Part shown: in pieces, positions 14,081 through 27,625 of the stretch | Layout: every line of letters begins with the position of its first letter | Numbering within the stretch: the stretch's first letter is position 1 | Source of the DNA: Bacteroidales bacterium | GTDB taxonomy: Bacteria; Bacteroidota; Bacteroidia; Bacteroidales; P3 | Direction of reading: 5' to 3' | Length of the DNA stretch: 64,000 nucleotides | Assembly: GCA_017550405.1 (NCBI GenBank) | Contig: JAFZPH010000019.1 | Location: forward strand, 35,075-99,074 | Notes under the pieces: model-generated | The model's input: the letters and a program-made list of their open reading frames with translations, nothing else | Told to the model about the DNA's origin: nothing | The model's database searches: none | Translations under genes and position numbers: made by a program

Positions 14081-14945
14081 ATAGCATATCACGTTGTTGT
14101 ACAGATATATTCTCCGTAGGAGATCTCGAATAGGTATATTCCAATGACCGATTTGGGTTTATTTGACAAAGACTAAAGTGTGCCGGAGGCACACCATCTC
14201 AATAACCCCACACTAAACACCGAAGGTGAGCAGTGTGGGGTAACGGTGACCCATCCCAATGCGTGTCGAAGACACGCCACCTCGTATCGATTAACAAGGT
14301 GGCGTACCACCGACAAGCAGAATATGCGTGTTAAAGTGTAAATCGATTTACGAATTAACACATTCACGAAATAATTGTTATATATAGGTGAGTATGCAAC
14401 GCGACGACCCCCCCGCATTATCACTCCCTTACGTCCTTCAAACCGGCATCCTTATTCTATCGTTCCTCCCTCGTTTCCTGTAATGATGAAAGATAACGAG
14501 CCTGTAACGATACTATCAGGATGCTAGATTGAACGGCCCCAGTGAGTCCCAGCGCCAACTCCAGGCTCGATGCCACATCGATAGAAACAATCGAGCAACA
14601 GATAATCAACCGAGAACAGAAAGATAAGCTGCTCCGACAGATAGAAGCCATCGAGAAGAAATGCCGGTTGGAGAAACAGACGCACAAGAAATATGAATTG
14701 CACCAGGAGGTTGTAAGGTTGAAATAAATATTAAGCATGTTTAAATATGCTTAATGTATATTTTCATAATAACATATTCATAATAAATCAGTTACATATA
14801 TATTCTAATTTTAAAAATGTGGTTTAGAACGGTGATTATCACGAATGGATATAAAAAAATAGGTTCAATTTACCCATTGGATAAATATTAAGCACATAAA
14901 AATGTGTTTGATATTTAAAAAAGATGCATATTAGATTATTTTTCG

Positions 14946-14953
14946 TATATTTG
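14946..14953 (+). promoter_or_regulatory. -7 box for the COG1373-type ATPase gene
   Basis: TATATTTG lies 19 nt upstream of the ATG at 14972. Confidence 0.5.
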
Positions 14954-14971
14954 TGGCCTAAAATATACAAT

Positions 14972-16432
14972 ATGTTAAGTAGTGAATTAATTGAGAAACA
15001 GATTATAGGGCGGCTCCGCGTTGACAATCCATGGTGGACAGAAAATGAGGTTCCAAGGTATTATTCCGATATGCATCCTCGTTTATATCTCGACATCTTT
15101 TATCCTCTTGTAGTTGATACCGAGATACGGCGAGCAATTATCTTGATGGGCCCGCGGCGCGTTGGCAAGACAGTCATGTTGTACCATACCATTCAAAAAC
15201 TAATTGCCGACGGTGTATCCCCACGGAACATCATCTATATATCTGTAGAGACACCCATCTACAACAAGATATTGCTGGAACACTTGTTCAACCTCGCCAA
15301 GCAGGCTTTGGGGAAAGCAGATAGCAGAGAACAATTTTTTGTGTTTTTCGACGAGATACAATATTTGAAAGACTGGGAGATAAACCTGAAATCCTTGGTG
15401 GACACTTACCGTAACATAAAATTCATAGCTTCTGGCTCTGCTGCTGCAGAACTAAAGAAGAGAAGCAATGAAAGCGGTGCAGGCCGCTTCACCGATTTCA
15501 ACCTTCCGCCACTCACGTTCTATGAATACATACACCTGAAAGATTACGGCCAACTGATGCATCCAGTCATGATGGAATGGTATTCTGGACATGTCCCTTG
15601 CAGCACAACTATTGACATCGCAAAGCTCAATAAGCTTTTTATCGACTATATCAACTATGGCGGTTACCCCGAGGTGGTGTTCTCCGAACGCATACAAGAA
15701 AACCCGGGACAATTCATCAGGCACGATATTATCGACAAGGTTCTTCTACGAGATTTGCCGAGTCTGTATGGAATCACCGATGTGCAGGAGTTGAACTCCT
15801 TGTTCACCATGATTGCTTATCACTCTGGCTCCCAGTTCTCATTTGAAGGATTGTCTCGCGATTCTGGCGTGAAGAAAGAAACGCTTCGCAAATATATTCA
15901 ATATCTGGAAGCAGCATTTTTGGTAAAAAAGATTCGCAGGGCTGACGATACGGCCAAGGCGTACAAACGGGAGATGCTGTTCAAGCTATACCTGACCAAC
16001 CCCTCGTTGCGCTGTGCTCTCTTCCAACCCATCGACGAGAACGACGATGCCTTGGGGAATATGGTTGAAACAGCTGTCTACGCCCAATGGATTCCACGAG
16101 ACGCTAATATCGCTTATGCCAACTGGAACGAAGGAAACAAAAAACAAGGCGAGGTGGACATTGTCGGCATCAACGAAGCAAGACAGAAACCTGACTGGGC
16201 TGTCGAGGTGAAGTGGACCGACAAGCCTTTTGCAAATCCCTCATCGGAATTGAAATCGTTGGAAACATTCATGAAAACCAACGGCCTCACCCATGCACTC
16301 GTCACCACCATATCAGAGACAGGCAAAAAAGATATGCCGTACGGCTGCCTACAGTTTATGCCCGTGGCCTGCTACGCCTATACGGTTGGCGAAAACACAT
16401 TGAAAGCAACAAAGATGACTTATGGATTGTAA
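14972..16432 (+). CDS. AAA+ ATPase with a DUF4143-type C-terminal domain (COG1373 family)
   Basis: Walker A GPRRVGKT and Walker B FFVFFDEIQYL. The C-terminal GEVDIVG...AVEVKW resembles a PD-(D/E)xK signature. Confidence 0.75.
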   Translation: MLSSELIEKQIIGRLRVDNPWWTENEVPRYYSDMHPRLYLDIFYPLVVDTEIRRAIILMGPRRVGKTVMLYHTIQKLIADGVSPRNIIYISVETPIYNKILLEHLFNLAKQALGKADSREQFFVFFDEIQYLKDWEINLKSLVDTYRNIKFIASGSAAAELKKRSNESGAGRFTDFNLPPLTFYEYIHLKDYGQLMHPVMMEWYSGHVPCSTTIDIAKLNKLFIDYINYGGYPEVVFSERIQENPGQFIRHDIIDKVLLRDLPSLYGITDVQELNSLFTMIAYHSGSQFSFEGLSRDSGVKKETLRKYIQYLEAAFLVKKIRRADDTAKAYKREMLFKLYLTNPSLRCALFQPIDENDDALGNMVETAVYAQWIPRDANIAYANWNEGNKKQGEVDIVGINEARQKPDWAVEVKWTDKPFANPSSELKSLETFMKTNGLTHALVTTISETGKKDMPYGCLQFMPVACYAYTVGENTLKATKMTYGL

Positions 16433-16651
16433 AATGTAGATACCTAAAATGTAGACCTCATGCTAGAAGATGCAATCCGAACCCTTGAAGGTTGGAATCG
16501 ATTTAAGACGACAAACAGAGGAATGGCGGTAGGGCCGTGATAATTCCTTTAACCCAAAAATGACAAGAATGAATGAGAAGTCGGCCTGATGACCGATTTG
16601 GTTTTTTTAGCCGATGAGCGTATCTATGTCGGAGAATTGAAAAAAAATGTG

Positions 16652-16659
16652 TATCTTTG
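16652..16659 (+). promoter_or_regulatory. -7 box about 320 nt upstream of the helicase start
   Basis: TATCTTTG, followed directly by the small hairpin CCCGTGG/CCACGGG. Confidence 0.45.
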
Positions 16660-16821
16660 CAACGTCAAACCCCGTGGCCACCACGGGTCAGGCAAGCAAC
16701 AAAAAAGTGTAAAACAACAAACAAATTAACAACATAGAGAAAAGGAACTAACGTAAACAACGACATATTGACATAAAGCATTTTTTGCTTTTCAAGTGGA
16801 TGGAAATCTGGACAATTTCCT

Positions 16822-16887
16822 CTGTATTACACGAGAAAGCAGAAATGCTCACGGTATTATCCGTGGGCTTTCTCGTTTGTAATACAG
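16822..16887 (+). other. Long hairpin in the putative 5' leader of the helicase operon
   Basis: CTGTATTACACGAGAAAGC pairs with GCTTTCTCGTTTGTAATACAG (19 bp with a 2-nt bulge). An inner CACGG/CCGTG stem sits in the loop. Confidence 0.6.
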
Positions 16888-16979
16888 GCAGTCCAGAGCC
16901 TCCATCCAGACAGAAGTCCGCGGATTTTTTCATTGGTGGTGTTTTGAAAGGCAAAAAGCGAAAGAACCTTTCAGACATC

Positions 16980-19900
16980 ATGAGCACCAAATTCTTCAAC
17001 AATATAGAGACGACGCTGATGGACAAGTTCCACGGCATCGCCACAGCAATGGCCAACTTCGACATCTTTCATGCCGTAGTTGGCTATTTCCGTTCTTCGG
17101 GCTATTTCAAACTGCGCAAGGAACTGGAGAACGTGAAAGAGATACGCATCCTTGTAGGTATTGATATTGACAATCTTTTCCGTCAGTCGCAGGCGGCGGG
17201 CAAGCTGTTCTTCGGTGACCGCGATGCCACAATAGAGCAGTATGCTGAGGCTTTTCTGCGCGACGTGAAAGAATCCGATTACGACACCGAGGTTGACCGC
17301 GGTATACGGCAATTCTGCAAAGACATCGAGAGCGGCAGACTTGCGTTGCGTGCTCACCCTTCGCGCGACCTGCACGCCAAGTTCTACCTCTGTCTGCCCC
17401 AAGGGCATAATCCCAACAGCGACGGTTGGGTGATTATGGGCAGCAGCAACCTCAGCGCCCAGGGACTCGGAGCTACCGAGCCACCCAGATATGAGCTCAA
17501 TGTGGCAATGAAGGACTACGATGATGTGAGCTATTGCGAGGGCGAATTTCAACGACTGTGGAACGAAGGTCTGCCTGTCACCTTCGACGATGTGAGTCGG
17601 ATTATCAATAAGACCCACCTTGCTCCGGACGAGCAGCAGCCTACCCCCTACGAGCTTTATATGCGGATGATGATTGACCATTTTGGCACTCAGGTGGAGG
17701 ATGATTTTGTTCCCCTGCTGCCCGACGGCTACGACAATCTCACCTATCAGCGTGATGCTGTAGTGCAGGGCTACGACATCATGATGCGTCATGGCGGATG
17801 CTTTATCGCCGACGTGGTCGGTTTGGGCAAGACGGTTGTCGCCGCCATGATAGCGCAGCGTTTCATTGCCGCCAACGGCGACAGCACCCGCATACTGGTT
17901 ATCTTCCCGCCCGCAGTGCGCAGCAACTGGGTGGAGACCTTCAAGGATTTCAATATCCGCAACAAGTACAGCCACTTCGTCAGTAATGGCAGTTTGGACA
18001 AGGTGATTGCGGGAGCGGACAACTTAAGCCAACCGGGCTACTACGACCTGATTATTGTCGACGAGGCGCATAACTTCCGTCACGACAGTACCGGCAACTA
18101 CGACCTCTTGCAGCGTATCTGCAAGGCACCTCGACTCAACGGCGGCAACGTGTCGGGCGATAAGCGGGTGCTGTTGCTTTCGGCCACACCTTTGAACAAC
18201 ACTCCCGAAGATATAAAGAACCAGTTGTTGCTTTTTCAGGACACCGCCCGCTGCACGTTGGACGGAATAGGCAACATAGCCGACACCTTTGCCCCTTGGG
18301 TAAAGGAGCACAAGACCCTGATGTCGCAGCGGAGGGTGCTAAGTACCGAGATGTTGACCAAGCGCATCGATGCCATCAATCAGGAGATGCGGCATGTGGT
18401 GTTGGAGAAGGTGATGGTGCGCCGAACACGCAGCAACATACAGCATGAACCGCGGTACAGCGGTGAAATCCATTTCCCCGAATTGCTCGACCCCACCGTA
18501 CGCACCTATGAGATGACACCCCATGTCTACGAACTCTTCTACGAGACTTACCGCGCATTGGTTGCTGGAAAGAATAGCGATGCCGACAAGGAAGGCTCTT
18601 CGGGAGATAGTGCAACAGGACTGACTTATGCCCGCTACCGTGCCGTGGAGTACTGCCCTAAATACATCAAAGCCAACGGTGGCAAGGCCAAACAGGTGGC
18701 CGACCAGCTGGCAGCCATCTATCAGACCCACATGGTCAAGCGGTTGGAGAGTAGCTTCTATGCTTTCAAACGTTCATTGCACACCCTGCTGCAAGCCACC
18801 CTTGGCATGATAAAGATGTTTGAAGAAGACAAGGTGATTATCGCACCCGAGTTGAATGTGAAGAAACTACAGTCGGACGGCATGGAATTGGATGCCATCA
18901 TCGAGTTGGCACTGAACAAGGGCTACGACCAGGACGAGATACTATATAGGGCAGCGGATTTCAATCCCGAATTCCTGCCCATGCTCCAAGATGATGCAGC
19001 CTTGCTTGGTGCACTCTGCAAGCAATGGGATGCAGTGGATGAAGACTCGAAATTAGACCGTTTTATCGAGATGCTACAGGGTGAGTTGTTCGAAACCGAC
19101 ACCAATCCGACAGGCAAGCTGGTGGTCTTCTCCGAGAGTGTAGACACGGTGAATTACCTCGAGGAAGAATTGAAGAAACGGTTGCACCGTGATGATATAC
19201 TGGCTGTTTTCTCCAAGAATAGAAACAGGTTGCGCGAGACCGTCAGGGCCAATTTCGATGCCAACTACAAGGGAGAGGCCGTTGATGACTACAATATCAT
19301 CATCACCAGCGACGTGTTGGCGGAGGGCGTAAACCTGCACCGGGCAAATGTGGTAGTGAACTACGACAGCCCGTGGAACGCCACACGACTGATGCAGCGC
19401 ATTGGTCGTGTGAACCGTATCGGGTCGAAAGCACCGGTGATATACAATTATATGTTCTACCCTTCCGACCCGGGCGACAAGATTATCAGCCTGAAGAAGA
19501 ATTCGCTTATCAAGCTGCAGAGTTTCCATTCGGCATTGGGCGAAGACACCCGCATCTATTCCCACGAAGAGATGGTGCATGAGTTTCACCTCTTCAATTC
19601 AGATATGCAGGACGACACCGACCGCAGTCTGGAACTGTTGCGCGAAGTGAGGAGGCTGCACGACAGCAACCCTGCCCTATACCGACGCATCAAGCAGCTG
19701 CCCTGCAAGAGCCGTTGCGCCAGGGATACGAAAAATAACACATTACCACAATCACAAATTCACACAATCACCTATCTCTCTTCCCCGAAGAAGAAAGCCT
19801 TCTATCTTGTGGGGGAACATATCCGCGAGCTCTCTTTCTTAGAGGCAGCCACCATCATGAAGGCAGAGCTGGATGAGCACGCGGTGCCATTTGGTGACAA

Positions 19901-20321
19901 TATGGCACTGCACTACGAACAGGTGCGGAGTGCGATGGCGCAATACACAATCGACCAGCAACGGCAACATCAAGAGGACAAACCCAAGATTGGCAGCAAG
20001 GATAACGACGCTAAAAAGGCGGCTGCTTTCCTGCGCGATGTGCGTCCCTCCCTGCCTGACGACGAGGCCCGCAAAACGGTGGATGTGCTGAAAGCACTGG
20101 TGGAACGGGGTAAGTACAACCAGTTGGCCGACAACCTCAACCGATTGTCGAGGAAGCACAAGAAGAGTCCGCTGCCTATCATCGAGATAGTGGAACAATT
20201 GGAAGAACTGAAAGCCCGATATTCCCATCCCGATAAAGAGACACCGACCCAGACAAGTGCCGGTATCACTGCCGACATAATCCTCAGCGAGACCTTCTTT
20301 TGTTATCCGTTGATAAGTTGA
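16980..20321 (+). CDS. PLD-family nuclease domain fused to an SNF2/DEAD-like helicase (restriction or defence subunit)
   Basis: N-terminal HxK...GSxN motif (DLHAKFYL...IMGSSNLSAQG). Helicase motifs VVGLGKT, IIVDEAHNFR, LLLSATPLNN and QRIGRVNRIG. I chose the ATG at 16980 (MSTKFFNNIE...) because the upstream part of the ORF does not look protein-like. Confidence 0.8.
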   Translation: MSTKFFNNIETTLMDKFHGIATAMANFDIFHAVVGYFRSSGYFKLRKELENVKEIRILVGIDIDNLFRQSQAAGKLFFGDRDATIEQYAEAFLRDVKESDYDTEVDRGIRQFCKDIESGRLALRAHPSRDLHAKFYLCLPQGHNPNSDGWVIMGSSNLSAQGLGATEPPRYELNVAMKDYDDVSYCEGEFQRLWNEGLPVTFDDVSRIINKTHLAPDEQQPTPYELYMRMMIDHFGTQVEDDFVPLLPDGYDNLTYQRDAVVQGYDIMMRHGGCFIADVVGLGKTVVAAMIAQRFIAANGDSTRILVIFPPAVRSNWVETFKDFNIRNKYSHFVSNGSLDKVIAGADNLSQPGYYDLIIVDEAHNFRHDSTGNYDLLQRICKAPRLNGGNVSGDKRVLLLSATPLNNTPEDIKNQLLLFQDTARCTLDGIGNIADTFAPWVKEHKTLMSQRRVLSTEMLTKRIDAINQEMRHVVLEKVMVRRTRSNIQHEPRYSGEIHFPELLDPTVRTYEMTPHVYELFYETYRALVAGKNSDADKEGSSGDSATGLTYARYRAVEYCPKYIKANGGKAKQVADQLAAIYQTHMVKRLESSFYAFKRSLHTLLQATLGMIKMFEEDKVIIAPELNVKKLQSDGMELDAIIELALNKGYDQDEILYRAADFNPEFLPMLQDDAALLGALCKQWDAVDEDSKLDRFIEMLQGELFETDTNPTGKLVVFSESVDTVNYLEEELKKRLHRDDILAVFSKNRNRLRETVRANFDANYKGEAVDDYNIIITSDVLAEGVNLHRANVVVNYDSPWNATRLMQRIGRVNRIGSKAPVIYNYMFYPSDPGDKIISLKKNSLIKLQSFHSALGEDTRIYSHEEMVHEFHLFNSDMQDDTDRSLELLREVRRLHDSNPALYRRIKQLPCKSRCARDTKNNTLPQSQIHTITYLSSPKKKAFYLVGEHIRELSFLEAATIMKAELDEHAVPFGDNMALHYEQVRSAMAQYTIDQQRQHQEDKPKIGSKDNDAKKAAAFLRDVRPSLPDDEARKTVDVLKALVERGKYNQLADNLNRLSRKHKKSPLPIIEIVEQLEELKARYSHPDKETPTQTSAGITADIILSETFFCYPLIS

Positions 20322-20397
20322 TAAGTTTATACGGCTCGCATCATATCAACAAATCAAATCAACATAAACATTAACATATAATTTAATCCAACCACTT

Positions 20398-23300
20398 ATG
20401 AACACCGAGACACTGCGACAGATATTCCAGTCGCCATTCAACTACCCTTTATTCAGTCGTGAGATAGTACATGGCATTTTCGGCTGCAACGATGTGCAGT
20501 CCCAACCCGAACTGATAGACACATCTTCTTTGGGTGACAGCAGCTATTATGTTGGACAGATGGAAGACTGCGAGAGTCGTCTGCTGGGTTTCTTCTATAC
20601 CCGTGTGGCGGAGGGCAGCGACGTGCGCCGCAAGCGCGTAGGATTGAGAAAACTGATACAGCCGTATCTGCGGTATGAGGTGGATGCTGCCATTGCGGTA
20701 TTCGACGATGGGCAGCATTGGCGGCTGTCGTATATCTGCGACCATAAAGAGGGAACAACGTCGGCCAAACGATTTTCTTACGTGTTGGGTGACAAGCAGG
20801 GACAGTACAAGACCCCTTTGGAGCGGTTGGACAGAGTGGCAGCAAAGGCAGGTCATTTTAAGATGGATGACCTTCGGGATGCCTTCTCGGTAGATGCACT
20901 CAGCAAGGAGTTCTTCGATGAGTATCACCGTCACTATGACCGCATCTGTGATTATATTATCCACTCACACATTAACACATTAACGCAATTACACATTCAT
21001 GATTATGTGAAGAAAATGATGGGGCGTATTGTGTTTTTGCATTTCCTGCAGAAGAAAGGCTGGCTGAATGACGACCAAGAGTTTCTAAGCAAACTATTCT
21101 TCTTGAGTCCATACAAGCAGGATTTCCTTGAACAAGAATTAGAGCCACTCTTCTTTGGTATATTCAACACCGAGCCAGACAAACGCGAACAACTGTTTCA
21201 CCAAGAGCTCTGGGATCTGCGGTGGTTAGCGGAATGGGAAAAACTGCCCTATTTGAATGGCGGTTTGTTTGAGCGCGATGAGGTGGACAAAATGAAGATT
21301 AAACTGCCTGCATCATTATTTGAGAATCTGTTTAAGTTTATGGCCTCGTACAACTTCACCATTGATGAGAACGACCCCGACGATGCAGATATTGGAATTG
21401 ACCCCGAGATGCTGGGCAAGATCTTTGAGAGCCTGTTGGAGGACAACAAAGCCAAAGGTGCATTCTATACCCCCAAGGAGATAGTGCGCTACATGTGCAA
21501 AGAGAGCCTGATAGCCTATCTGAATAGTAAAGTGAATAGTGATGAGGTGAATAGTGAATCGAAAGAAAATCAAATCACTAATCACGATTCACTCGTCACT
21601 GCCGTAAGGCAATTTGTTGAGCAGCATGAATTCCCCGAGGAGTTGGAGCCTTATCGCGAAGTGTTAGATACCGCCTTGCGGAATGTGAAGATATGCGACC
21701 CCGCCATCGGCAGCGGTGCCTTCCCGATGGGCTTGCTGAATGAGCTGTGGCGTTGCCGTGAAGCATTGGGAGAAAGGGCTACCAGCCCGTCACAGATGGG
21801 ATCACAGGCCACAGGCCTGTCACAGGCTGGAAGCCTGTGCTCCAAAGAAGGACAAGCTGGAAACTTGTACCCCTATTCCCGCGCAGCCCTCAAACGAGAG
21901 ATCATCGAGAATAACATCTATGGAGTAGACATTGAGAAAGGTGCCATCGACATCGCCCGCCTGCGCTTCTGGCTCTCCATTGTTGTCGATGCTGAGAAAC
22001 CGGAGCCCTTGCCCAACTTCGACTACAAGTTTATGCAGGGCAACAGCCTTATTGAGAGCTTTGGGGGATACGACCTCAGCCATATCATGGACAAGAAAGT
22101 TGAAAGGAATGGAAAAACATATTATCAACGTCGAATAGGAGGAAAAGAGACCGTCCAAGTGTCTATGGATTTCTTCTCCAATGATACAAGACAGAACCTC
22201 AGAATCTGGCTGAAGAGATATTTCACGCTTACCAATCACCATGAGAAAACAGAGTACCGAAAGCGCATCAACGAAAGTGTGAAGAGTTACATAAAACAAC
22301 AAGGCATCGGACCTTCTGCCGAGACCAAATTAGACACCCTCGACCCCTCAGCAAACCAAGACTTCTTCCTCTGGCACACATGGTTCAAAGACATCTTTGA
22401 TAACGGTGGATTTGATATTGTGATTGGAAATCCTCCTTACATCAACGTTGAAAATCTTGATGAAAAGACAAAAGTTTATCTTTTTACGCATTATTCCACA
22501 TGTCAAGGACGCACAGATATTTATATTGGATTTATTGAGAAGGCAATAGCATTAATGAACAATAATGGTGTGACCTCTTTCATTATCCCTTATTCATACA
22601 CTAATCAAAATTATGGAGAACTCTCTCGTAAAATGTTAGCCGAGAAATATTCCATTGATGAGATTGTTGATACCTCCAACTACTATGTTTTTGACAATGC
22701 AGTGGTAAAAAACATTATCATCCGTTTTGGGAAAAGAAAGGGCGATTTCACATTGATTAGAATTGCTGATAATAAAGAATGTTTTGAGCAAGCAAATTTC
22801 GGGAATAGAAGACTGCCTACAAAAACTTTCCTTCAATTAAAGAATTGCCGAATAGAGACAAAACCTTTCGAAAATATATTGGGAATAAAAGAAAATATTG
22901 AAAAGGCATCAATAAGACTAGGAAAAATCTATTTGGTCGCATATGGAGTACGTGTCAATAACAAATATGATAAAAACAAGCCCAAAAACTATTATATTCA
23001 CGACACGCCTCAGGCGCAGTATAAGAAATTTACTGAGGGGAAATGCATAGATAGATATACATTTACACAATATGGATGGCTTAATTATTGTCCGAATGAA
23101 CATTATAATTCCATGTTTCCAGAATTGTTCGAAAATGAGAAACTGATGTTTATCAATGTTGTATCAAAAGGGCTAAGATTTGCATATGATAACGATGGCT
23201 ATTATAATAGTCATACGGTAGTGAACTGCGTGAATATATCAAAGCTTACAAAAGTAACCCATCCAACAGCAAAGAAAGCAATTAAAGAAGGAAATGTTAT

Positions 23301-23604
23301 TCTAGCAAAAAATTACTCCACAAAATTTGTGCTTGGACTAATTAACTCTAAACTTATTAACTGGTATTTCATGCAATTCCAGAGTGAGGGTTTGCATTGT
23401 TATCCAGATGATGCAAAACAATTCCCTATCATAAAAGTCACTCCAGAGCAACAGCAACCTATTATAAATCTAGTTGATCAAATTCTCGAAAAGAAGCGAG
23501 ACTTTCCTAATGCCAATACATCTGCATTGGAACAAGAAATCGACAAATTAGTTTACCAACTCTACAACCTCACTCCCGAAGAAATCGCTGTGATAGAGCA
23601 ATAA
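20398..23604 (+). CDS. Eco57I-like gamma-class N6-adenine DNA methyltransferase with a TaqI-like C-terminal target-recognition domain
   Basis: Motif I DPAIGSGAFPMG, motif IV GNPPY (22429-22440) and TRD-like GLINSKLINWYF. 1068 aa. Confidence 0.85.
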   Translation: MNTETLRQIFQSPFNYPLFSREIVHGIFGCNDVQSQPELIDTSSLGDSSYYVGQMEDCESRLLGFFYTRVAEGSDVRRKRVGLRKLIQPYLRYEVDAAIAVFDDGQHWRLSYICDHKEGTTSAKRFSYVLGDKQGQYKTPLERLDRVAAKAGHFKMDDLRDAFSVDALSKEFFDEYHRHYDRICDYIIHSHINTLTQLHIHDYVKKMMGRIVFLHFLQKKGWLNDDQEFLSKLFFLSPYKQDFLEQELEPLFFGIFNTEPDKREQLFHQELWDLRWLAEWEKLPYLNGGLFERDEVDKMKIKLPASLFENLFKFMASYNFTIDENDPDDADIGIDPEMLGKIFESLLEDNKAKGAFYTPKEIVRYMCKESLIAYLNSKVNSDEVNSESKENQITNHDSLVTAVRQFVEQHEFPEELEPYREVLDTALRNVKICDPAIGSGAFPMGLLNELWRCREALGERATSPSQMGSQATGLSQAGSLCSKEGQAGNLYPYSRAALKREIIENNIYGVDIEKGAIDIARLRFWLSIVVDAEKPEPLPNFDYKFMQGNSLIESFGGYDLSHIMDKKVERNGKTYYQRRIGGKETVQVSMDFFSNDTRQNLRIWLKRYFTLTNHHEKTEYRKRINESVKSYIKQQGIGPSAETKLDTLDPSANQDFFLWHTWFKDIFDNGGFDIVIGNPPYINVENLDEKTKVYLFTHYSTCQGRTDIYIGFIEKAIALMNNNGVTSFIIPYSYTNQNYGELSRKMLAEKYSIDEIVDTSNYYVFDNAVVKNIIIRFGKRKGDFTLIRIADNKECFEQANFGNRRLPTKTFLQLKNCRIETKPFENILGIKENIEKASIRLGKIYLVAYGVRVNNKYDKNKPKNYYIHDTPQAQYKKFTEGKCIDRYTFTQYGWLNYCPNEHYNSMFPELFENEKLMFINVVSKGLRFAYDNDGYYNSHTVVNCVNISKLTKVTHPTAKKAIKEGNVILAKNYSTKFVLGLINSKLINWYFMQFQSEGLHCYPDDAKQFPIIKVTPEQQQPIINLVDQILEKKRDFPNANTSALEQEIDKLVYQLYNLTPEEIAVIEQ

Positions 23605-23631
23605 AAGAAGGAGTATTACGTTATAAAAAAT

Positions 23632-24576
23632 ATGAAGCATAAGCCTAAAGATAATATATTAGAATCTTTGGATAGGAATTGCCTAACAACACCGCGCTCA
23701 GGTTCTTTTTTGCAAGATCTAGTAAATCTTTGTGAAAAAATGAATGATGAGATGTTGTTTGAACTAATCCCCATCAGACTAGTGGCATATTTAGAAGATA
23801 TGTTGCGGTTGAAATATGAACTTGTACTAAGACAGCCTGGAAAGCTAAAGAGTGTGTATGAACAAAACAAAAAGAAACTTGCCATTGATTCTGCCGAACT
23901 AATTGACGGTACCCTTCCTTTAAGTTTACAAATCGCCTATTCTTTTGGTTGCAATAATTTGAACGAGATCCTTGATAATATTAAAACTCTAACAAACATT
24001 GATTTAAATAAATTATGTGCTGATAAAATGGGAGACGATACCTGGATAAAAACACGAATATCTATTGATAGTATGTTCAATTTTAGACATAGGTTGTGCC
24101 ATGAATCAGGACATGGATTATGCATTTCTAAAGATTGTGCTCGGACCTGGATACAAGATGTGGGATTGTTGCTAAATTTAATAGACATTGCAATAGTCAA
24201 TACTGTTTATAAAGACTATCATTTCTTCAAAGAAAGTGATAAATCAAACAAGGACATTGACAGTGTGTTAGATGAAAACATTCAAAATGCTCAAAAGTTA
24301 TTTTATGATTCCGAAAAAAATCTTGATGATATTCTGCAACTATCTATAACTGATAATCAATATCCTAAAAGAATACCTAATTTGGATTATATATCAAAAT
24401 GGAAAGAATATAGAGATAAGAGAGTGGAGAGTGAAAACTTTTTCCCTATTGGCTCTAAACAAAATGTATTGTATACTTTGAAAGAAAAAACAACCTACAA
24501 TAACACTCTATATAATGAATTAAAAATTAGGTATAGGGATTTTATTAACTATGCCACAATTAATAAAATCATGTAA
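23632..24576 (+). CDS. Hypothetical protein with an RxxxxH (HEPN-like) motif
   Basis: 314 aa, AT-rich, 27 nt after the methyltransferase stop. It carries the motif FNFRHRLCHESGHG. The C-terminal WKEYRDKRVE is reminiscent of DUF1311, but that is weak. Confidence 0.6.
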   Translation: MKHKPKDNILESLDRNCLTTPRSGSFLQDLVNLCEKMNDEMLFELIPIRLVAYLEDMLRLKYELVLRQPGKLKSVYEQNKKKLAIDSAELIDGTLPLSLQIAYSFGCNNLNEILDNIKTLTNIDLNKLCADKMGDDTWIKTRISIDSMFNFRHRLCHESGHGLCISKDCARTWIQDVGLLLNLIDIAIVNTVYKDYHFFKESDKSNKDIDSVLDENIQNAQKLFYDSEKNLDDILQLSITDNQYPKRIPNLDYISKWKEYRDKRVESENFFPIGSKQNVLYTLKEKTTYNNTLYNELKIRYRDFINYATINKIM

Positions 24577-24586
24577 TAAATAATTT

Positions 24587-25300
24587 ATGGACTTGAAGAA
24601 AAACTTATTTAAACTCAAAAAAAATTGGTGGAAAATACTATTATTTATTTTTTTGATAAGTATTATCCCCGTTTCCCTAAATATTGTTTTAGGCTCAAAT
24701 AATCCATTTCATCGATTTTCCATTATTGGAGACCCTAAAGATTGGCTGACATTTTGGGGAGTATATTTGGGATCAATTGGGACCTTAATTATGGCTGTAA
24801 TTGCATTCAGTTCTCTTAAACAAAACGACCTTCTTGCCAAACAAAATGAAGATCAACTAAAAGAAATAAAACGACAATGGGAAGAGCAGAATAGAGCAAG
24901 GTTATCATGCTCCTTGGCGATAGGAAAAGACTGTATATACATTGAAATTAAAAACATTGCGTCTGTGCCAGCCCACAATGTTAATGTCTCGCTTGAAGAT
25001 TATACGGAAGAGAAAGGAATTTATGAATTTGATACCCTATGTGACCATCTAGCAAAAATACGTTTTGAAATATCACCATTTGAGATAAAACAGATTCCTG
25101 TATGGGGTGTGTCGCCATATGTTGATGGTAAATATGGTGGATATTTGGCTGTAATACTATCGTATAATGGTGTCTCGGAGACTTTTAATTTATATCTTGA
25201 GGAAATTAACGTAACAGCTTGGAAATATTATACACGAGATGTGTGTGACAGCCTAAAGAATATTAATTCGACAATTGATGAAATAAAAAGAAAAATCTAA
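24587..25300 (+). CDS. Hypothetical 2-TM membrane protein
   Basis: 237 aa, 10 nt after the previous stop. Hydrophobic helices WWKILLFIFLISIIPVSLNIVLG and FWGVYLGSIGTLIMAVIAF are followed by a soluble domain. Confidence 0.6.
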   Translation: MDLKKNLFKLKKNWWKILLFIFLISIIPVSLNIVLGSNNPFHRFSIIGDPKDWLTFWGVYLGSIGTLIMAVIAFSSLKQNDLLAKQNEDQLKEIKRQWEEQNRARLSCSLAIGKDCIYIEIKNIASVPAHNVNVSLEDYTEEKGIYEFDTLCDHLAKIRFEISPFEIKQIPVWGVSPYVDGKYGGYLAVILSYNGVSETFNLYLEEINVTAWKYYTRDVCDSLKNINSTIDEIKRKI

Positions 25301-25538: not shown

Positions 25539-26600
25539 TTACTTCAACGTCATTTGCAAACCCTTGTACAGATAGAAGAACGCCTTGGGGTTAGTCTTCT
25601 TTAGTTTGTTAAGCTTGGTGTATTCATACTCCGCGATTGTCCAATGAGCTATTTCTGCGTTGTGGGAAGGTGTATATTTCTCAATCTTTGGAGACTGTGT
25701 CATCAACGAGGCGGCCAGATAGTAGGTCTTGGCGGCAAAAAGGATGGCTTTTTCTATATGGAATGATTCTGAAAAGATGTGGTTGGCCACCTGTTTTATA
25801 CCTAACAAGAGAGTATCGAAGTCTGTTCCTTTATGGCTGCATCGGAAACAGATGGAGAGAGCATTGTCCATCGTGTCGCTAAGCACATCGTCAACAGTGC
25901 AAGACATATTATGGTACAACAATTCTTTTTCAGCTATTCGACGATAGGTTGAGTTGATGGCGAGCAAATCATCGGCCTTGTCGAAGAGGCGTCCGATGTC
26001 ATACAACTGCTTGATTATCTCCATCCCGCAGCTGTTGTAGCCTTTCTTGTAGGGAATGCCTATGGTTCGTGGTGCAAAGGCAGTCATCTTGTCGGCAAGG
26101 AGATTGTTGTAGTCGGGAACCTTTACCATAACATCAGGCGTTTCGGTGTCGATAAAGTCATTGGCGACAGGTTGGTCAAGAAGTACAGTATAAGGATTCT
26201 CCTCGAACAGCACGTCGAGTAGTATGGAGGCCTCCTTGTCTTCTACTACTGAGTGGTAGTAGAATTTGTAATGCTTCGCAGGGATGTCGCCCGTTGAGGC
26301 ACGTTGTTGGCACTCAAAACGGGTGAATCCATTGCTGTCACAGATTGAATGGAGAATAGCGTCGATGTCGTTGTACCGTGGAGACACTATGATGTCAATG
26401 TCTATAGAAAGGCGATGCGGCTTTTGAAACATCAGCATTAGGGCAGTTCCTCCTTTGAAGACAAACGGAAGCGAGGAATTTGCAAGACCTTCGAGCAAAG
26501 CTAAAGCCCGGATGGCTTTCTCGACCAGAATGCGGTCGGCTTTGTTTTCTTTGGATACCTTGCATATCCAATCGTGGGTGAAAGAACTTGGTTTTATCAT
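25539..26600 (-). CDS. abiEii: Nucleotidyltransferase AbiEii/AbiGii-family toxin
   Basis: FKGGTALMLMF...RLSIDIDIIV nucleotidyltransferase motifs. 353 aa, immediately downstream of an AbiEi-like gene. Confidence 0.8.
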   Translation of the reverse strand: MIKPSSFTHDWICKVSKENKADRILVEKAIRALALLEGLANSSLPFVFKGGTALMLMFQKPHRLSIDIDIIVSPRYNDIDAILHSICDSNGFTRFECQQRASTGDIPAKHYKFYYHSVVEDKEASILLDVLFEENPYTVLLDQPVANDFIDTETPDVMVKVPDYNNLLADKMTAFAPRTIGIPYKKGYNSCGMEIIKQLYDIGRLFDKADDLLAINSTYRRIAEKELLYHNMSCTVDDVLSDTMDNALSICFRCSHKGTDFDTLLLGIKQVANHIFSESFHIEKAILFAAKTYYLAASLMTQSPKIEKYTPSHNAEIAHWTIAEYEYTKLNKLKKTNPKAFFYLYKGLQMTLK

Positions 26601-26601
26601 C

Positions 26602-27315
26602 TCAATAGTCTATTTCATCAAGTATTTCTTCTATCACGGCACGACGGCCACGACGACCGGCATAGCGGAGCATGCGGCTGATATTGACGGCATAGGACGA
26701 GCAGGCGTTCTCAAAGATGCGGAGCATCTCTATATTTTGGAACGGAAACATTTTGTCCAAGGCGAGATCCACCAGTATCTTCTCTATCGAAGCCATCGGT
26801 ATGTCTTCCACTGTGATTACAGGGGCGGCTGTAATCAGGTTGCGCACAACAATGCAACCGTCATAATATGCGAGTTCCTCGTTGAGGTTGTTGCTGAGGA
26901 CGGTTTTAGGGTATTTGTCGCGAATAGCATAATAAACTGCCTCTCGTGCATAGCGCTCGACATCGACAAAAAACAACTCGGTATTGAGGAGATGATGGAC
27001 AAATGCATTGACCGCAGAGAAATTCCATTGGCAGTAATCTGCGAACGGAAACTGCTTGCGCATAATACGGGCTATATCCATTGTTTTACGGAAGATGTCG
27101 GGAAAGAAAATCTTTTCTTCCCCAAAACGATAACGACCGTGGCCGATTCTATGCAGGATTCCTTTGTCTATTAATGAATGAATACGCCATTTGACGGTTG
27201 AAAACGGGATGTCTGGAGAAAAACTGCAGTAGAAATCATCAATATCTCTTATTGTGATTTCTGTTTTGTTTCCCAGTGCATTACGCATCTCCTCTATATG
27301 TAAATTATCATACAT
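26602..27315 (-). CDS. abiEi: AbiEi-family antitoxin / transcriptional regulator (wHTH)
   Basis: WRIHSLIDKGILHRIGHGRYRF winged-helix signature. I chose the ATG at 27315 because the longer ORF runs into the repeat array. Confidence 0.7.
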   Translation of the reverse strand: MYDNLHIEEMRNALGNKTEITIRDIDDFYCSFSPDIPFSTVKWRIHSLIDKGILHRIGHGRYRFGEEKIFFPDIFRKTMDIARIMRKQFPFADYCQWNFSAVNAFVHHLLNTELFFVDVERYAREAVYYAIRDKYPKTVLSNNLNEELAYYDGCIVVRNLITAAPVITVEDIPMASIEKILVDLALDKMFPFQNIEMLRIFENACSSYAVNISRMLRYAGRRGRRAVIEEILDEIDY

Positions 27316-27335
27316 TATCGTTATATTTGACGATG

Positions 27336-27343
27336 CAAAGATA
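27336..27343 (-). promoter_or_regulatory. -7 box for the abiEi-abiEii operon
   Basis: The minus strand reads TATCTTTG, 21 nt upstream of the ATG at 27315. Confidence 0.55.
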
Positions 27344-27400
27344 CGCAAATTTTTGTCAATAGAAAGAAAAAAATGACAAAAGTTTGAAAAATGTATGTGG

Positions 27401-27625
27401 GGTCTTAACGAGGGTTTATGGACCAATACAAAGTGAAAAGTGAAAAATGAAAAGAGTGTTCGCCAAGGGACCATTACAAATTGAAAAGTGAAAATTGAAA
27501 AGTGAAAAGGGTGTTCGCCGAGGGAGCAATACAAATTGAGAAGTGAAAAATGGGGTTACCGAGAGACCAATACAAAGAGAAAAGTGAAAATTGAAAACTG
27601 AAAAGAGTGTTCGCCGAGAGGACGA
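27401..27625. repeat. Cassette-boundary repeat array R2 (4 units, period ~42-55 bp)
   Basis: Cores sit at 27456, 27511, 27552 and 27607 (GTGTTCGCC[A/G]AGGGA...) and alternate with GAAAAGTGAAAATTGAAAAGTGAAAAG words. Confidence 0.85.

What the first reader, a model, noticed from the sequence alone, without database searches (positions are those of the whole stretch)
16980..25300. Four-gene operon: PLD-SNF2 helicase, m6A MTase-TRD, RxxxxH protein and 2-TM protein (split Type ISP / DISARM-like, not a textbook R-M system)
The first gene fuses a PLD-type nuclease motif (HxK...GSSN) to a full SNF2 helicase. The second is a 1068-aa Eco57I-like gamma m6A methyltransferase that carries its own TaqI-like TRD. 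Together they hold the parts of a single-polypeptide Type ISP enzyme (nuclease-helicase-MTase-TRD), but split across two proteins and using PLD in place of Mrr. They also recall DrmD plus DrmMI of class 1 DISARM, yet I see no drmA or drmB (DUF1998). Two more genes follow after gaps of 27 and 10 nt, so the unit may have four components. This is inference from domain content only.
Basis: partly seen in the sequence, partly recalled or inferred. Interest (0 to 1): 0.7.

Follow-up and report, generated by a model that had tools for sequence, protein, structure and literature searches.

The report
R-M pair, add-on genes, leader RNA
The four genes are real, but only the first two (a nuclease-motor protein and a DNA methylase) form a conserved restriction-like defence unit; genes 3 and 4 are swappable add-on defence genes, and the cluster is headed by an undescribed ~200-nt structured RNA leader that many other restriction genes in gut and rumen Bacteroidales also carry.

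Summary
Four co-directional ORFs lie at 16980-25300 with gaps of 76, 27 and 10 nt, and the stated domains are present.

The four-component interpretation is not supported.
- In 80 Bacteroidales genome loci, the PLD-SNF2 gene (g1) is followed by the Eco57I-like methylase-TRD gene (g2) in all 70 loci with enough sequence to tell.
- The slot after g2 is hypervariable, with 55 protein clusters including AbiH, AbiJ, TIR, KAP/PifA, DUF2971 and HNH.
- g3 occurs in 5 and g4 in 2 of the 57 loci with a near-complete g2 (the window counted in both); a g4 relative also follows a fragmented g2 in L063. Each occurs without the other.
- g3 is a HEPN (RiboL-PSP-like, invariant R-x4-H) plus LprI/DUF1311 protein.
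- g4 is an orphan protein with two apparent transmembrane segments.

Best reading: a two-gene ATP-dependent R-M-like core, plus two independent abortive-infection-type add-ons. It is not DISARM, BREX or Type ISP by membership. Whether g2 keeps its own nuclease is unresolved.

Unexpected: window 16777-16978, directly 5' of g1, is a structured leader.
- It scores 186 bits against my covariance model and has no Rfam match.
- Covariation is strong both in 64 genome copies and in 88 distinct metagenome copies not used to build the model.
- It also precedes Type ISP, Type I, Type III and orphan-methylase genes, and some surface-protein genes.
- Its function is unknown.

The parts
16777..16978 (+). 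Structured 5' leader. A conserved 5' box (AGCAUUUUUUGCUUUUC) is followed by a multi-helix domain, about 16797-16908. P2 is 16797-16804 paired with 16901-16908. P3 is CUGGAC/GUCCAG, 16807-16813 paired with 16891-16897. P4 is a long hairpin at 16821-16888, whose tip (16847-16868) plus U-rich tail looks like a terminator. Then come a segment complementary to the 3' strand of the P4 tip, a U-run (about 16922-16934), and a conserved GAAAGGC..GC box just before the ATG.
   Evidence: Covariance model R1 scores 185.7 bits here, and this is the only copy in the window. The minus strand scores 12 bits. RNAfold gives -79 kcal/mol with z = -6.4. Covariation: MAFFT alignment A6 has 93.9% of cells paired against 38-55% when partners are slid. 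Alignment A7 has 97.5% paired and 32 of 57 pairs with compensatory changes. Alignment A8, 88 distinct metagenome copies not used to build the model, has 95.4% paired and 28 such pairs. No Rfam family matches at E <= 1.
16980..20321 (+). g1: PLD (single HKD) nuclease domain fused to a SNF2-type translocase (1113 aa), with a roughly 280-aa C-terminal helical tail. Proposed restriction/motor subunit.
   Evidence: Pfam and PADLOC hits. Motif conservation in 74 homologues. The nearest solved relative by sequence is RapA, over a short stretch only. A g2 homologue follows in all 70 genome loci with enough downstream sequence.
20398..23604 (+). g2: gamma-class N6-adenine methyltransferase (Eco57I family, 1068 aa). 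It has a conserved roughly 350-aa N-terminal region and a hypervariable C-terminal TaqI_C-type target-recognition domain. Proposed modification and specificity subunit.
   Evidence: Pfam, PADLOC and NCBIfam hits. Conservation collapses after about residue 780. The nearest solved relatives are CamA, BseCI and TaqI, over the methylase core only. The N-terminal model has pLDDT 82 and no fold match.
23632..24576 (+). g3: HEPN (RiboL-PSP-like) N-terminal domain plus LprI/DUF1311-like C-terminal domain. Accessory gene and candidate RNase effector.
   Evidence: R152, H157 and E158 are invariant. Of 61 relatives, 31 hit PF18735 and 35 hit PF07007. hhalign between the close family and those relatives gives probability 100% and E = 1e-44. 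The close clade lies directly after a g2-type methylase in 6 of 6 independent contexts.
24587..25300 (+). g4: small protein with two apparent transmembrane segments (by eye) and an orphan C-terminal domain. Accessory gene, candidate membrane effector or sensor.
   Evidence: No Pfam, PADLOC or NCBIfam family. Only 14 homologue clusters exist. The homologues lie directly after a g2-type methylase with no g3 present: L028, L063, L101-L108.

Best explanation
The locus has three layers.

(1) Core. g1 and g2 form a two-gene, ATP-dependent restriction-modification-like system.
- g2 methylates adenine in a target read by its C-terminal TRD, and so marks self DNA.
- On unmethylated target DNA, g2 recruits or licenses g1.
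- g1 then translocates double-stranded DNA with its SNF2 motor and cuts with its PLD domain.
- Each g1 carries only one HKD motif, so a complete PLD active site needs two g1 molecules. This would tie cleavage to dimerisation or to collision of two complexes.
- In parts list this resembles Type ISP, and in subunit logic it resembles Type I. It differs in having a PLD-SNF2 'R' protein and a fused methylase-specificity 'MS' protein.

(2) Add-ons. g3 (HEPN RNase candidate with an LprI-like domain) and g4 (two apparent TM segments) are separate cargo genes in a variable slot after g2. They are probably transcribed with the core. They most likely act as abortive-infection or back-up effectors, not as obligate subunits. 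A PrrC-like arrangement, in which g3 is held in check by the R-M proteins, is possible.

(3) Control. The cluster is headed by a roughly 200-nt structured RNA leader shared with many other R-M genes. It most likely regulates expression in cis, for example by attenuation.

Shown here: gene order, domain content, motif conservation, co-occurrence statistics, and RNA covariation.
Inferred: every step of enzymology, the g1-g2 interaction, co-transcription, and the leader's function.
For: Core.
- g1 is followed by g2 in 70 of 70 informative genome loci, across 48-86% g1 identity.
- All nuclease, motor and methylase motifs are at least 98% conserved.
- The TRD region of g2 is hypervariable, as expected for a specificity module.
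- Some relatives carry inverted partial Eco57I-family cassettes. In L109 these sit next to an Mpi-family invertase; L082 has an inverted g2 fragment. Milman 2023 lists this same gene pair as a programmed-inversion locus.
- The canonical D..(D/E)xK motif is missing from strands 2-3 of the g2 N-terminal domain.

Add-ons.
- The downstream slot holds 55 clusters in 57 loci. They include AbiH, AbiJ_NTD4, TIR_2, KAP_NTPase/PifA, DUF2971/PDC-S31, DUF3800, DUF4062, HNH_5 and AAA_15/21.
- g3 occurs without g4, and g4 without g3.
- HEPN assignment of g3 rests.
- Distant g3 relatives sit in other defence contexts.
- GC falls from about 0.50 to 0.32-0.36 inside the g2 TRD and stays low through g3-g4. This suggests the TRD and the add-ons are exchanged together.

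Operon.
- Gaps are 76, 27 and 10 nt, and no terminator-like site lies between the genes.

Leader.
- In leaderless relatives L086, L088 and L109, a small XRE-type HTH ORF abuts g1 at the same position. This suggests that control upstream of g1 matters.
Against: - There is no experimental datum for this family: no methylome, no cleavage assay, no phage assay.
- The PLDc_2 hit is marginally below Pfam's cut-off (26.2 against 27).
- g2 has near-invariant D96, D115 and K117 in its N-terminal domain, and strong PADLOC Type IIG hits. It may therefore still carry its own nuclease.
- Foldseek could neither confirm nor exclude a nuclease fold.
- The close g3 and g4 clades were seen only next to this methylase type. 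That hints at a functional dependence I cannot test.
- The leader is also found before non-defence genes (BspA-LRR, GLUG, CsgG-like). Its role is therefore not specific to R-M control.
- The long-range helix P1 shows almost no covariation, and its 3' strand is lost in divergent copies.
Confidence: 0.55

Rival explanations
1. All four genes are obligate components of one system. g3 and g4 would be needed for sensing or for the restriction outcome.
For: The genes share a strand, and the gaps of 27 and 10 nt suggest translational or transcriptional coupling. The close g3 and g4 clades were found only directly after this methylase type.
Against: g3 is present in only 5 and g4 in only 2 of the 57 loci with a near-complete g2 (a third g4 relative follows a fragmented g2 in L063). 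Each occurs without the other. Fourteen informative loci have no co-directional gene after g2. Dozens of unrelated genes occupy the same slot.
Confidence: 0.07
2. g2 is a self-sufficient Type IIG (Cj0031/MmeI-like) restriction-modification enzyme with its own N-terminal nuclease. g1 is then a separate helper: a processivity or anti-evasion factor, or an independent PLD-helicase defence protein.
For: PADLOC Type IIG models match g2 at 1e-73, 3e-68 and 6e-66. Milman 2023 calls the homologue a Type II R-M enzyme homologous to Cj0031. The N-terminal domain has an alpha-beta-beta-beta-alpha-beta layout and near-invariant D96, D115 and K117. Single-gene PLD-helicase anti-phage proteins exist as a curated family (NCBIfam NF042964).
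Against: Adjacency of g1 and g2 is strict, 70 of 70. No acidic-x-K motif lies in strands 2-3, where the fold normally places it. Neither a PDB profile search nor Foldseek finds a nuclease match for g2 residues 1-360. g1 scores 124 bits against the 1100-bit cut-off of NF042964.
Confidence: 0.17
3. The pair works like BREX or DISARM. Methylation marks self, and g1 blocks replication of unmethylated phage DNA by remodelling or occlusion rather than by double-strand cleavage. The PLD domain would be regulatory or would only nick.
For: g1 is most similar to DrmD, DpdE, BrxHII and HmaA-type SNF2 proteins, and g2 shows weaker similarity to PglX and DrmMI.
Against: The H-x-K and GSSN catalytic residues of the PLD domain are at least 98% conserved. 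There are no PglZ, BrxC, DrmA or DrmB partners. All NCBIfam BREX and DISARM scores are far below their cut-offs.
Confidence: 0.12
4. The conserved upstream element is not an RNA. It would be a DNA-level feature: a miniature mobile element, or an invertible promoter bounded by the P1 inverted repeat.
For: The element is about 200 bp and is bounded by imperfect inverted repeats (P1) that hardly covary. It is dispersed before many unrelated genes. The gene classes involved, R-M and surface proteins, are classic phase-variable genes in Bacteroidales (PMC7641763 abstract).
Against: All of the roughly 150 copies are co-oriented with the gene that follows, usually 0-95 nt before its ATG. None is inverted. 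Internal helices show dense compensatory changes, including many strand-specific G-U pairs. The opposite strand scores only 12-15 bits.
Confidence: 0.1

Closest known systems
Type ISP restriction-modification enzymes (LlaGI, LlaBIII)
   Same: They hold the same functional parts: nuclease, SF2 dsDNA translocase, gamma-class m6A methylase and C-terminal TRD. Cleavage is expected to be coupled to translocation and to the meeting of two enzymes. Genuine Type ISP genes in the same metagenomes carry the same leader RNA.
   Different: Here the parts lie on two polypeptides. The nuclease is a PLD (HKD) domain rather than Mrr. The motor is SNF2-type. No ISP_coupler or Type_ISP_C domain is detected.
Type IIG / IIL enzymes (Eco57I, MmeI, Cj0031 of C. 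jejuni)
   Same: g2 belongs to the Eco57I methylase family and has a TaqI_C TRD. It matches PADLOC IIG models over most of its length. Relatives undergo TRD shuffling by inversion.
   Different: IIG enzymes act alone and need no ATP. g2 is always paired with a PLD-SNF2 gene, and the canonical PD-(D/E)xK residues are not evident in its N-terminal domain.
Class 1 DISARM (DrmD + DrmMI + DrmA/B/C)
   Same: It has a SNF2 helicase next to a large adenine methylase and includes a PLD nuclease (DrmC). g1's second-best PADLOC hit is DrmD.
   Different: There is no DrmA and no DrmB/DUF1998. The PLD is fused to the SNF2 protein. DrmD and DrmMI scores are far below family thresholds.
EcoprrI-PrrC and RloC (a HEPN anticodon nuclease embedded in a Type I R-M locus); a model for g3 only
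   Same: A HEPN-motif protein is encoded inside or next to an R-M operon. Anantharaman et al. 2013 (PMC3710099) document repeated HEPN/R-M associations and list the RiboL-PSP HEPN family.
   Different: g3 has no ABC-ATPase domain and carries an LprI/DUF1311 domain instead. No evidence exists for latency or for activation. g3 is present in only a minority of loci.
Controller (C) proteins of R-M systems, and cis-regulatory leader RNAs (riboswitch or attenuator type); a model for the leader only
   Same: The control element sits directly upstream of the restriction gene. In leaderless relatives an XRE-type HTH ORF occupies that position. The leader has a terminator-like hairpin and an alternative pairing followed by a U-run.
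   Different: It is an RNA structure, not a protein. No ligand or partner is known. It is also found before non-R-M genes. It matches no Rfam family.

Membership tests
Type ISP R-M | A single polypeptide with Mrr-family nuclease, SF2 helicase-like ATPase, coupler, methylase and TRD | tested here: not met
   There are two polypeptides. g1 and g2 have no Mrr_cat, ISP_coupler or Type_ISP_C Pfam hits. A true ISP gene from L158 does hit Mrr_cat_2 and ISP_coupler.
Type IIG R-M | Eco57I/MmeI-type gamma m6A methylase with a fused C-terminal TRD | tested here: met
   Eco57I 3.5e-39, TaqI_C 3.1e-08, and PADLOC REase_MTase_IIG 1e-73. DPAIGSGAF and NPPY are conserved.
Type IIG R-M | An active PD-(D/E)xK endonuclease domain in the same polypeptide, acting without a partner | tested here: inconclusive
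   The AF2 model of residues 1-360 (pLDDT 82) has an alpha-beta-beta-beta-alpha-beta layout, but strand 3 reads LLGFFYTR. D96, D115 and K117 are near-invariant elsewhere in the domain. Neither Foldseek nor a PDB profile search finds a match. An obligatory PLD-SNF2 neighbour argues against autonomy.
DISARM class 1 | The core genes drmA (helicase) and drmB (DUF1998) are present | tested here: not met
   Neither occurs among window neighbours or in the identical contig L001.
DISARM class 1 | g1 is an equivalog of DrmD and g2 of DrmMI | tested here: not met
   NCBIfam DISARM_DrmD scores 154 bits against a cut-off of 610. The PADLOC DrmMI match is only 1e-23 and partial.
BREX | PglX methylase together with PglZ and BrxC | tested here: not met
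   BREX_1_MTaseX scores 86 bits against a cut-off of 500. No PglZ or BrxC lies in the neighbourhood.
PLD (HKD) nuclease superfamily | The HxK(x)nGSxN catalytic motif | tested here: met
   H132-A-K134 and G154-S-S-N157 are at least 98% conserved in 74 homologues. The Pfam PLDc_2 score is 26.2 bits, just under the gathering score of 27.
SNF2 family ATPases | Helicase motifs I, II, III and VI, with SNF2-type domain matches | tested here: met
   GLGKT, DEAH, SATP and QRIGRVNRIG are conserved. SNF2-rel_dom scores 37.6 bits and Helicase_C 65 bits. The nearest solved sequence is RapA.
HEPN superfamily, RiboL-PSP-HEPN family (PF18735); applies to g3 | The R-x4-6-H motif in an all-helical domain, with a profile match to the family | tested here: met
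   R152-x4-H157 is invariant in 61 relatives. The window protein itself has no direct Pfam hit, but 31 of 61 relatives do (best 2e-10). The close family aligns to those relatives with hhalign probability 100% and E = 1e-44. The model is all-helical. RNase activity was not tested.
LprI / DUF1311 (PF07007); applies to the g3 C-terminal domain | A profile match over the C-terminal roughly 90 residues | tested here: met
   35 of 61 relatives hit PF07007 (best 1e-11) at about residues 200-290. This carries over to g3 through the same profile alignment.
Any Rfam RNA family; applies to the leader | A covariance-model match | tested here: not met
   cmscan of window 16300-17100 against 4227 Rfam families returns no match at E <= 1.

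The most novel reading that the evidence does not exclude
The roughly 200-nt leader is a new class of cis-acting regulatory RNA in gut and rumen Bacteroidales. It would place many horizontally exchanged restriction systems (PLD-SNF2/methylase pairs, Type ISP, Type I, Type III and orphan methylases) and some variable surface-protein genes under one common signal. That signal might be a ligand, a protein or an antitermination factor. This would coordinate when defence genes are switched on, for instance delaying nuclease expression after transfer or responding to infection. Within that frame, the PLD-SNF2 plus methylase pair is an uncharacterised R-M type whose cleavage needs two motor-nuclease subunits to assemble one PLD active site.
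Probability: 0.35. Interest if true: 0.8.

Novelty: new variant of a known kind. Interest (0 to 1): 0.62.

Why it matters
- The PLD-SNF2 plus methylase pair is common in Bacteroidales. It was present in all 80 genome loci kept of the 127 found. More distant PLD-SNF2 relatives occur on plasmids of many bacteria and archaea (98 records). Current tools still split the pair into a 'Type IIG' gene and an unclassified helicase, so its biology and methylation motifs are being mis-filed.
- The slot after the methylase looks like a natural collection point for single-gene defence modules. It could be mined for new ones: about 55 clusters in 57 loci, of which only about 29 were scanned and roughly a dozen of those matched no family.
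- The leader RNA is the most unexpected item. A large, well-covarying structure shared by four classical R-M types would be the first RNA-level control element common to unrelated restriction systems. It would give a direct handle (reporters, Term-seq, in-line probing) on how gut bacteria regulate defence genes.

Tried and rejected
- Foldseek of the g3 model against the PDB gave no hit with E <= 0.001. This is uninformative for an all-helical protein.
- A PDB profile search and Foldseek for g2 residues 1-360 gave nothing significant. The question of g2's own nuclease stays open.
- A search of window 16-30 kb for inverted TRD cassettes (a shufflon) found only short chance repeats. One pair of similar promoter-like boxes, TATCTTTGCA, lies at 16641-16669 and 27326-27354. 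The window copy is therefore not an inversion locus, unlike L109 and L082.
- A strict Bacteroides promoter pattern (TTTG-N17-23-TAnnTTTG) has no match near g1. The sigma-70 scan is no better than shuffled sequence.
- Rfam has no match. No tRNA lies at the island borders.
- The single viral-contig pattern hit (L112) was not confirmed by the covariance model.
- A profile search for distant g3 homologues among the other roughly 315-aa downstream genes found none.
- Helix P1 of the leader was first taken as a closing stem. Because it hardly covaries and its 3' strand is lost in divergent copies, I now treat it as doubtful; the 5' box may instead be promoter DNA.
- The leader is not a coding uORF. 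Indels among copies are not multiples of three, and the ATG used by the 1173-aa gene call is absent in other loci.
- Literature searches found no description of the pair as a tested system, nor of the leader.

Full report
**1. What is in the window**

Four + strand ORFs occupy 16980-25300.
- g1 is 16980-20321 (1113 aa).
- g2 is 20398-23604 (1068 aa).
- g3 is 23632-24576 (314 aa).
- g4 is 24587-25300 (237 aa).
- The gaps are 76, 27 and 10 nt.

The start of g1 is the ATG at 16980. All homologues align from that residue. The longer TTG/ATG extensions, including the 1173-aa public gene call seen, run into a non-coding conserved element.

The cluster lies in a low-GC stretch of roughly 14-31 kb, with GC 0.32-0.49 against 0.53-0.56 on the upstream flank. 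That stretch also holds:
- an AAA_14/DUF4143 ATPase (PADLOC PDC-S01) at 14924-16432;
- an AbiEi/AbiEii pair at 25539-27534 (-);
- a PDC-M29A/B pair at 27658-29348 (-).

It is therefore a defence island. No tRNA marks its edges.

**2. Domain content**

g1:
- PLDc_2 at 106-194 scores 26.2 bits, just under Pfam's 27.
- SNF2-rel_dom/ResIII covers 256-410 and Helicase_C covers 697-815.
- The best PADLOC model is 'C3a139, HKD+Snf2' (4e-38), followed by DrmD, HmaA, DpdE and BrxH.
- All NCBIfam equivalog scores are far below their cut-offs: DrmD 154 against 610, phospholipD_antiphage 124 against 1100, DpdE 114 against 500.

g2:
- Eco57I at 505-765 (3.5e-39), N6_Mtase, TaqI_C at 878-998, and a weak MmeI_Mtase hit.
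- PADLOC Type IIG models match at 1e-73, 3e-68 and 6e-66, and PglX and DrmMI match only weakly.

In 74 g1 and 56 g2 homologues the catalytic residues are at least 98% conserved. These are H132-x-K134, G154-SSN, GLGK284T, D361-EAH, SATP and QRIGRVNRIG in g1, and DPAIGSGAF (434-442) and NPPY (678-681) in g2.

The last roughly 300 residues of g2, the TRD, are not conserved. tblastn identity typically stops near residue 780.

**3. Which genes belong together**

A genome scan with g1 returned 80 Bacteroidales loci, mostly rumen and gut MAGs, at 48-86% identity.

*The core pair.*
- In all 70 loci with enough sequence after g1, a g2 homologue follows immediately. The other 10 loci end within or just after g1.

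*The slot after g2.*
- In the 57 loci with a near-complete g2, the next position is highly variable. It holds 55 protein clusters.
- 37 loci have at least one co-directional gene within 250 nt. 14 informative loci have none. 6 loci end at the contig edge.
- Representatives are AbiH, AbiJ_NTD4, TIR_2/SEFIR, KAP_NTPase (PifA-like), DUF2971 (PDC-S31), DUF3800, DUF4062, HNH_5, AAA_15/21, a UvrD-like helicase, STAS-like DUF4325, and about a dozen proteins with no family.

*g3 and g4.*
- g3 occurs only in the window, L005 (=L066), L007, L015 and L023.
- g4-like genes occur only in the window, L028 and L063. L063's g2 is fragmented, so it is not one of the 57 loci.
- g3 homologues form just 19 clusters at 90% identity. 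In six independent contexts they sit 17-27 nt after a g2-type methylase. What follows them is AbiJ plus a 212-aa protein, a KAP NTPase, DUF4325, a 1235-aa protein, or nothing.
- g4 homologues form 14 clusters. They sit directly after a g2-type methylase with no g3 present, and are followed by DUF4238 or DUF4062 proteins.

So the conserved unit is g1+g2. g3 and g4 are independent, stackable cargo that nevertheless seems specialised for this slot.

GC drops inside the g2 TRD and stays low through g3-g4. This fits exchange of the TRD together with the downstream cargo.

**4. What g3 and g4 are**

g3 itself has no direct family hit. The assignment goes through its relatives.
- A profile of its close family finds 99 representatives across public data.
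- In 61 of them R152, H157 and E158 are invariant and H153 is nearly so.
- 31 of 61 hit PF18735 (RiboL-PSP-HEPN) over about residues 20-190. 35 of 61 hit PF07007 (LprI/DUF1311) over about 200-290.
- hhalign between the close family and those relatives gives probability 100% and E = 1e-44, with the RHxxCHE motifs aligned.

Anantharaman et al. 2013 list the RiboL-PSP HEPN family as retaining the conserved HEPN motif, and as distantly related to AbiD/AbiF. They document repeated HEPN/R-M associations (PMC3710099).

Distant g3 relatives sit in other defence-type neighbourhoods: before a TIR gene, after YafQ, and after SNF2+SMC+Fic next to a DUF4145 HEPN.

The AF2 model (pLDDT 74) is all-helical and has no Foldseek match.

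g4 has two hydrophobic N-terminal segments (by eye) and an orphan C-terminal domain.

**5. Does g2 have its own nuclease?**

The AF2 model of residues 1-360 has pLDDT 82. It shows helices 3-27, strands 33-42, 48-56 and 62-69, helix 83-93, and strands 97-103, 108-114 and 124-130.

This layout is compatible with a restriction-endonuclease-like core. But the position that normally carries (D/E)xK, strand 3, reads LLGFFYTR.

The near-invariant acidic and lysine residues (D96, D115, K117) lie in later strands.

A PDB profile search and Foldseek gave nothing significant.

I lean towards an inactivated or repurposed domain, perhaps the docking site for g1. This point remains unresolved.

**6. Relation to known systems**

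The pair fails the membership tests for Type ISP, DISARM and BREX. It meets only the methylase/TRD half of Type IIG.

The pairing has been noticed before but, as far as I could find, never tested.
- Milman et al. [quoted passage not shown]
- PADLOC holds an 'HKD+Snf2' model.
- A Prevotella nigrescens replicon (L109) shows an HTH gene, a 'helicase-related protein', an N-6 methylase, two inverted partial Eco57I genes and an Mpi-family invertase.

The window itself has no inverted cassette.

More distant g1-like proteins, annotated 'helicase-related protein', occur on 98 plasmid records from bacteria and archaea. One example sits next to a methyltransferase and a second DEAD/DEAH-box helicase gene in Enterococcus, an arrangement that resembles a Type III Mod/Res pair.

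**7. Proposed mechanism (inferred)**

- g2 methylates and reads the target.
- On unmodified sites it licenses g1, which translocates on dsDNA and cuts.
- One HKD motif per g1 means that two g1 molecules must pair to form an active site. This would naturally couple cleavage to dimerisation or to collision, as in Type ISP enzymes or in dimeric PLD nucleases such as BfiI and SauUSI (general knowledge).
- g3 and g4 would be abortive-infection or back-up effectors. Whether g3 is guarded by the R-M proteins, as PrrC is, is speculation.

**8. The unexpected element: a structured leader**

*Conservation.* The roughly 200 nt directly 5' of g1 are 70-88% identical at the DNA level in about 60 loci. These include loci whose g1 protein is only 53% identical.

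*Structure.* The element comprises:
- a 5' box, AGCGUUUUUGCUUUUC;
- helix P2;
- a CUGGAC / GUCCAG pairing (P3). It can either stack between P2 and P4, or form a loop-loop contact between two small hairpins. The hairpin closing the GUCCAG loop has one covarying pair (U-A in 54 copies, C-G in 30);
- a long three-part hairpin, P4, whose GC-rich tip plus U-rich tail looks like a terminator;
- a segment (CACGGAU) complementary to the 3' strand of the P4 tip, followed by a U-run;
- a GAAAGGCGAAGCGC box that can pair with the 5' box (P1).

*Covariation.*

| Alignment | Copies | Cells paired | Paired when partners slid | Pairs with compensatory change (slid) | Covariation score (slid) |
|---|---|---|---|---|---|
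| A6, plain MAFFT | 60 | 93.9% | 38-55% | 22 (5-10) | 0.263 (<=0.064) |
| A7, fitted to the model | 64 | 97.5% | 37-53% | 32 of 57 (8-14) | 0.402 (<=0.071) |
| A8, metagenome copies not used to build the model | 88 distinct | 95.4% | 38-54% | 28 (9-17) | 0.397 (<=0.069) |

- In A6 the P3 helix is 100% paired, with 5 of 6 pairs covarying.
- The A8 copies were selected through the invariant P4 tip, so that helix cannot vary in A8.
- In A8, P2, P3 and the outer part of P4 each show three to six pair types per position.

*Other properties.*
- The minus strand scores only 12-15 bits, against 81-219 for the plus strand.
- RNAfold of the window copy gives -79 kcal/mol, z = -6.4.
- The alternative helix is 94.9% paired, against 25-48% when slid. 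In the divergent copies before L087, L089 and L092 the equivalent segments are CGUGGGCG and CGCCCACG, again followed by a U-run. This suggests a switch.
- P1 is weakly supported. It is 93-99% paired but almost without compensatory changes, and its 3' strand is lost in the most divergent copies. The 5' box could instead be promoter DNA.
- No Rfam family matches.

**9. The leader is not specific to this system**

Of these, 36 precede g1-like genes.

The others precede:
- Type ISP enzymes (Mrr_cat_2 + ResIII + ISP_coupler);
- Type I HsdM;
- Type III Res and Mod;
- MmeI-like and Dam-like methylases;
- small HTH ORFs;
- BspA-type LRR and GLUG surface proteins;
- a CsgG-like protein;
- a tail-collar-domain protein;
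- an 8xMP membrane protein.

Every copy examined is co-oriented with the next gene. The ATG usually lies 0-95 nt after the model end.

In leaderless g1 loci L086, L088 and L109, a 67-72-aa XRE-type HTH ORF abuts g1 instead.

The most economical reading is a portable cis-regulatory 5' leader used mainly by restriction genes. Its signal and mechanism are unknown. A DNA-level element, mobile or invertible, is less likely given the fixed orientation and the strand-specific covariation.

**10. Verdict**

- The 'split Type ISP-like, not textbook' reading of g1+g2 is reasonable as a description of how it may work. It is not a statement of family membership.
- The four-component reading is not supported.
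- The pair is a new, uncharacterised variant of ATP-dependent R-M, already glimpsed in the literature.
- The leader RNA is the most novel item and deserves its own follow-up.

Noticed in passing
window 16777-16978 (+); also L005-L070 just 5' of g1, and L113-L232: A roughly 200-nt structured leader with strong covariation and no Rfam match. It lies upstream of g1 here, and elsewhere upstream of Type ISP, Type I, Type III and orphan-methylase genes and of some surface-protein genes.
   Followed up: yes
window 14924-16432 (+): An AAA_14/DUF4143 ATPase (PADLOC PDC-S01, 2e-58) lies just upstream. Distant relatives (20-26% identity) lie within 10 kb of the g1-g2 pair in about a dozen other loci, on either side and either strand. 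This may be coincidence, because the family is abundant in Bacteroidales.
   Followed up: partly
window 25539-27534 (-) and 27658-29348 (-): An AbiEii/AbiEi (DUF6577) toxin-antitoxin pair converges on g4. Beyond it lies a PDC-M29A (AAA_15/21 ATPase) plus PDC-M29B pair. The region from about 14 to 31 kb is a low-GC defence island between peptidase genes.
   Followed up: partly
window about 22000-25300: GC falls from about 0.50 to 0.32-0.36 inside the TRD-coding part of g2 and stays low through g3 and g4. The break coincides with the point (about residue 780) where g2 homologues stop aligning. This suggests recombinational exchange of the TRD together with the downstream cargo.
   Followed up: partly
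L109 15005-18913; L082 16674-17582 (-): Some relatives carry inverted partial Eco57I/TRD gene fragments after the methylase. L109 also has an Mpi-family invertase, that is, a specificity shufflon. The window copy has none.
   Followed up: partly
L047 3385-3580 (-); L203, L124; L155, L161, L197: Leader copies also precede very small ORFs. One group is HTH-like, 61-74 aa (for example MAIFIGEIIRQKAKERKVTVTWMAKKLGCHRTNIYRIF...). The other is a 55-70-aa family, MKKRNKYIAQDRIAMRIAARYG...LTPLEALEDWDLL. Their function is unknown.
   Followed up: no
L086 9768-9986; L088 4551-4769; L109 7516-7719: In g1-g2 loci that lack the leader, a 67-72-aa XRE-type HTH ORF abuts or overlaps the g1 start. It resembles the controller proteins of R-M systems.
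   Followed up: partly
window 16641-16669 (+) and 27326-27354 (-): Two similar boxes (..GTATCTTTGCA..) contain a Bacteroides -7-like TAnnTTTG motif. One lies about 120 nt upstream of the leader and the other upstream of abiEi. They are probably promoters, and the repeat finder reported them as an inverted repeat.
   Followed up: no
window g2 residues about 460-495 (nt about 21775-21880): A low-complexity Ser/Gly/Gln-rich insertion (ERATSPSQMGSQATGLSQAGSLCSKEGQAGN) lies between methylase motifs I and IV. It is not conserved in homologues.
   Followed up: no
L111 (Enterococcus faecium plasmid p116-3) 7998-16709: A distant PLD-SNF2 'helicase-related protein' (23% identity) is followed by a 185-aa protein, a site-specific DNA methyltransferase and a DEAD/DEAH-box helicase family protein, an arrangement that resembles a Type III Mod/Res pair. 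Similar hits occur on Listeria and Bacillus plasmids. This is a different partnership for the same kind of protein.
   Followed up: no
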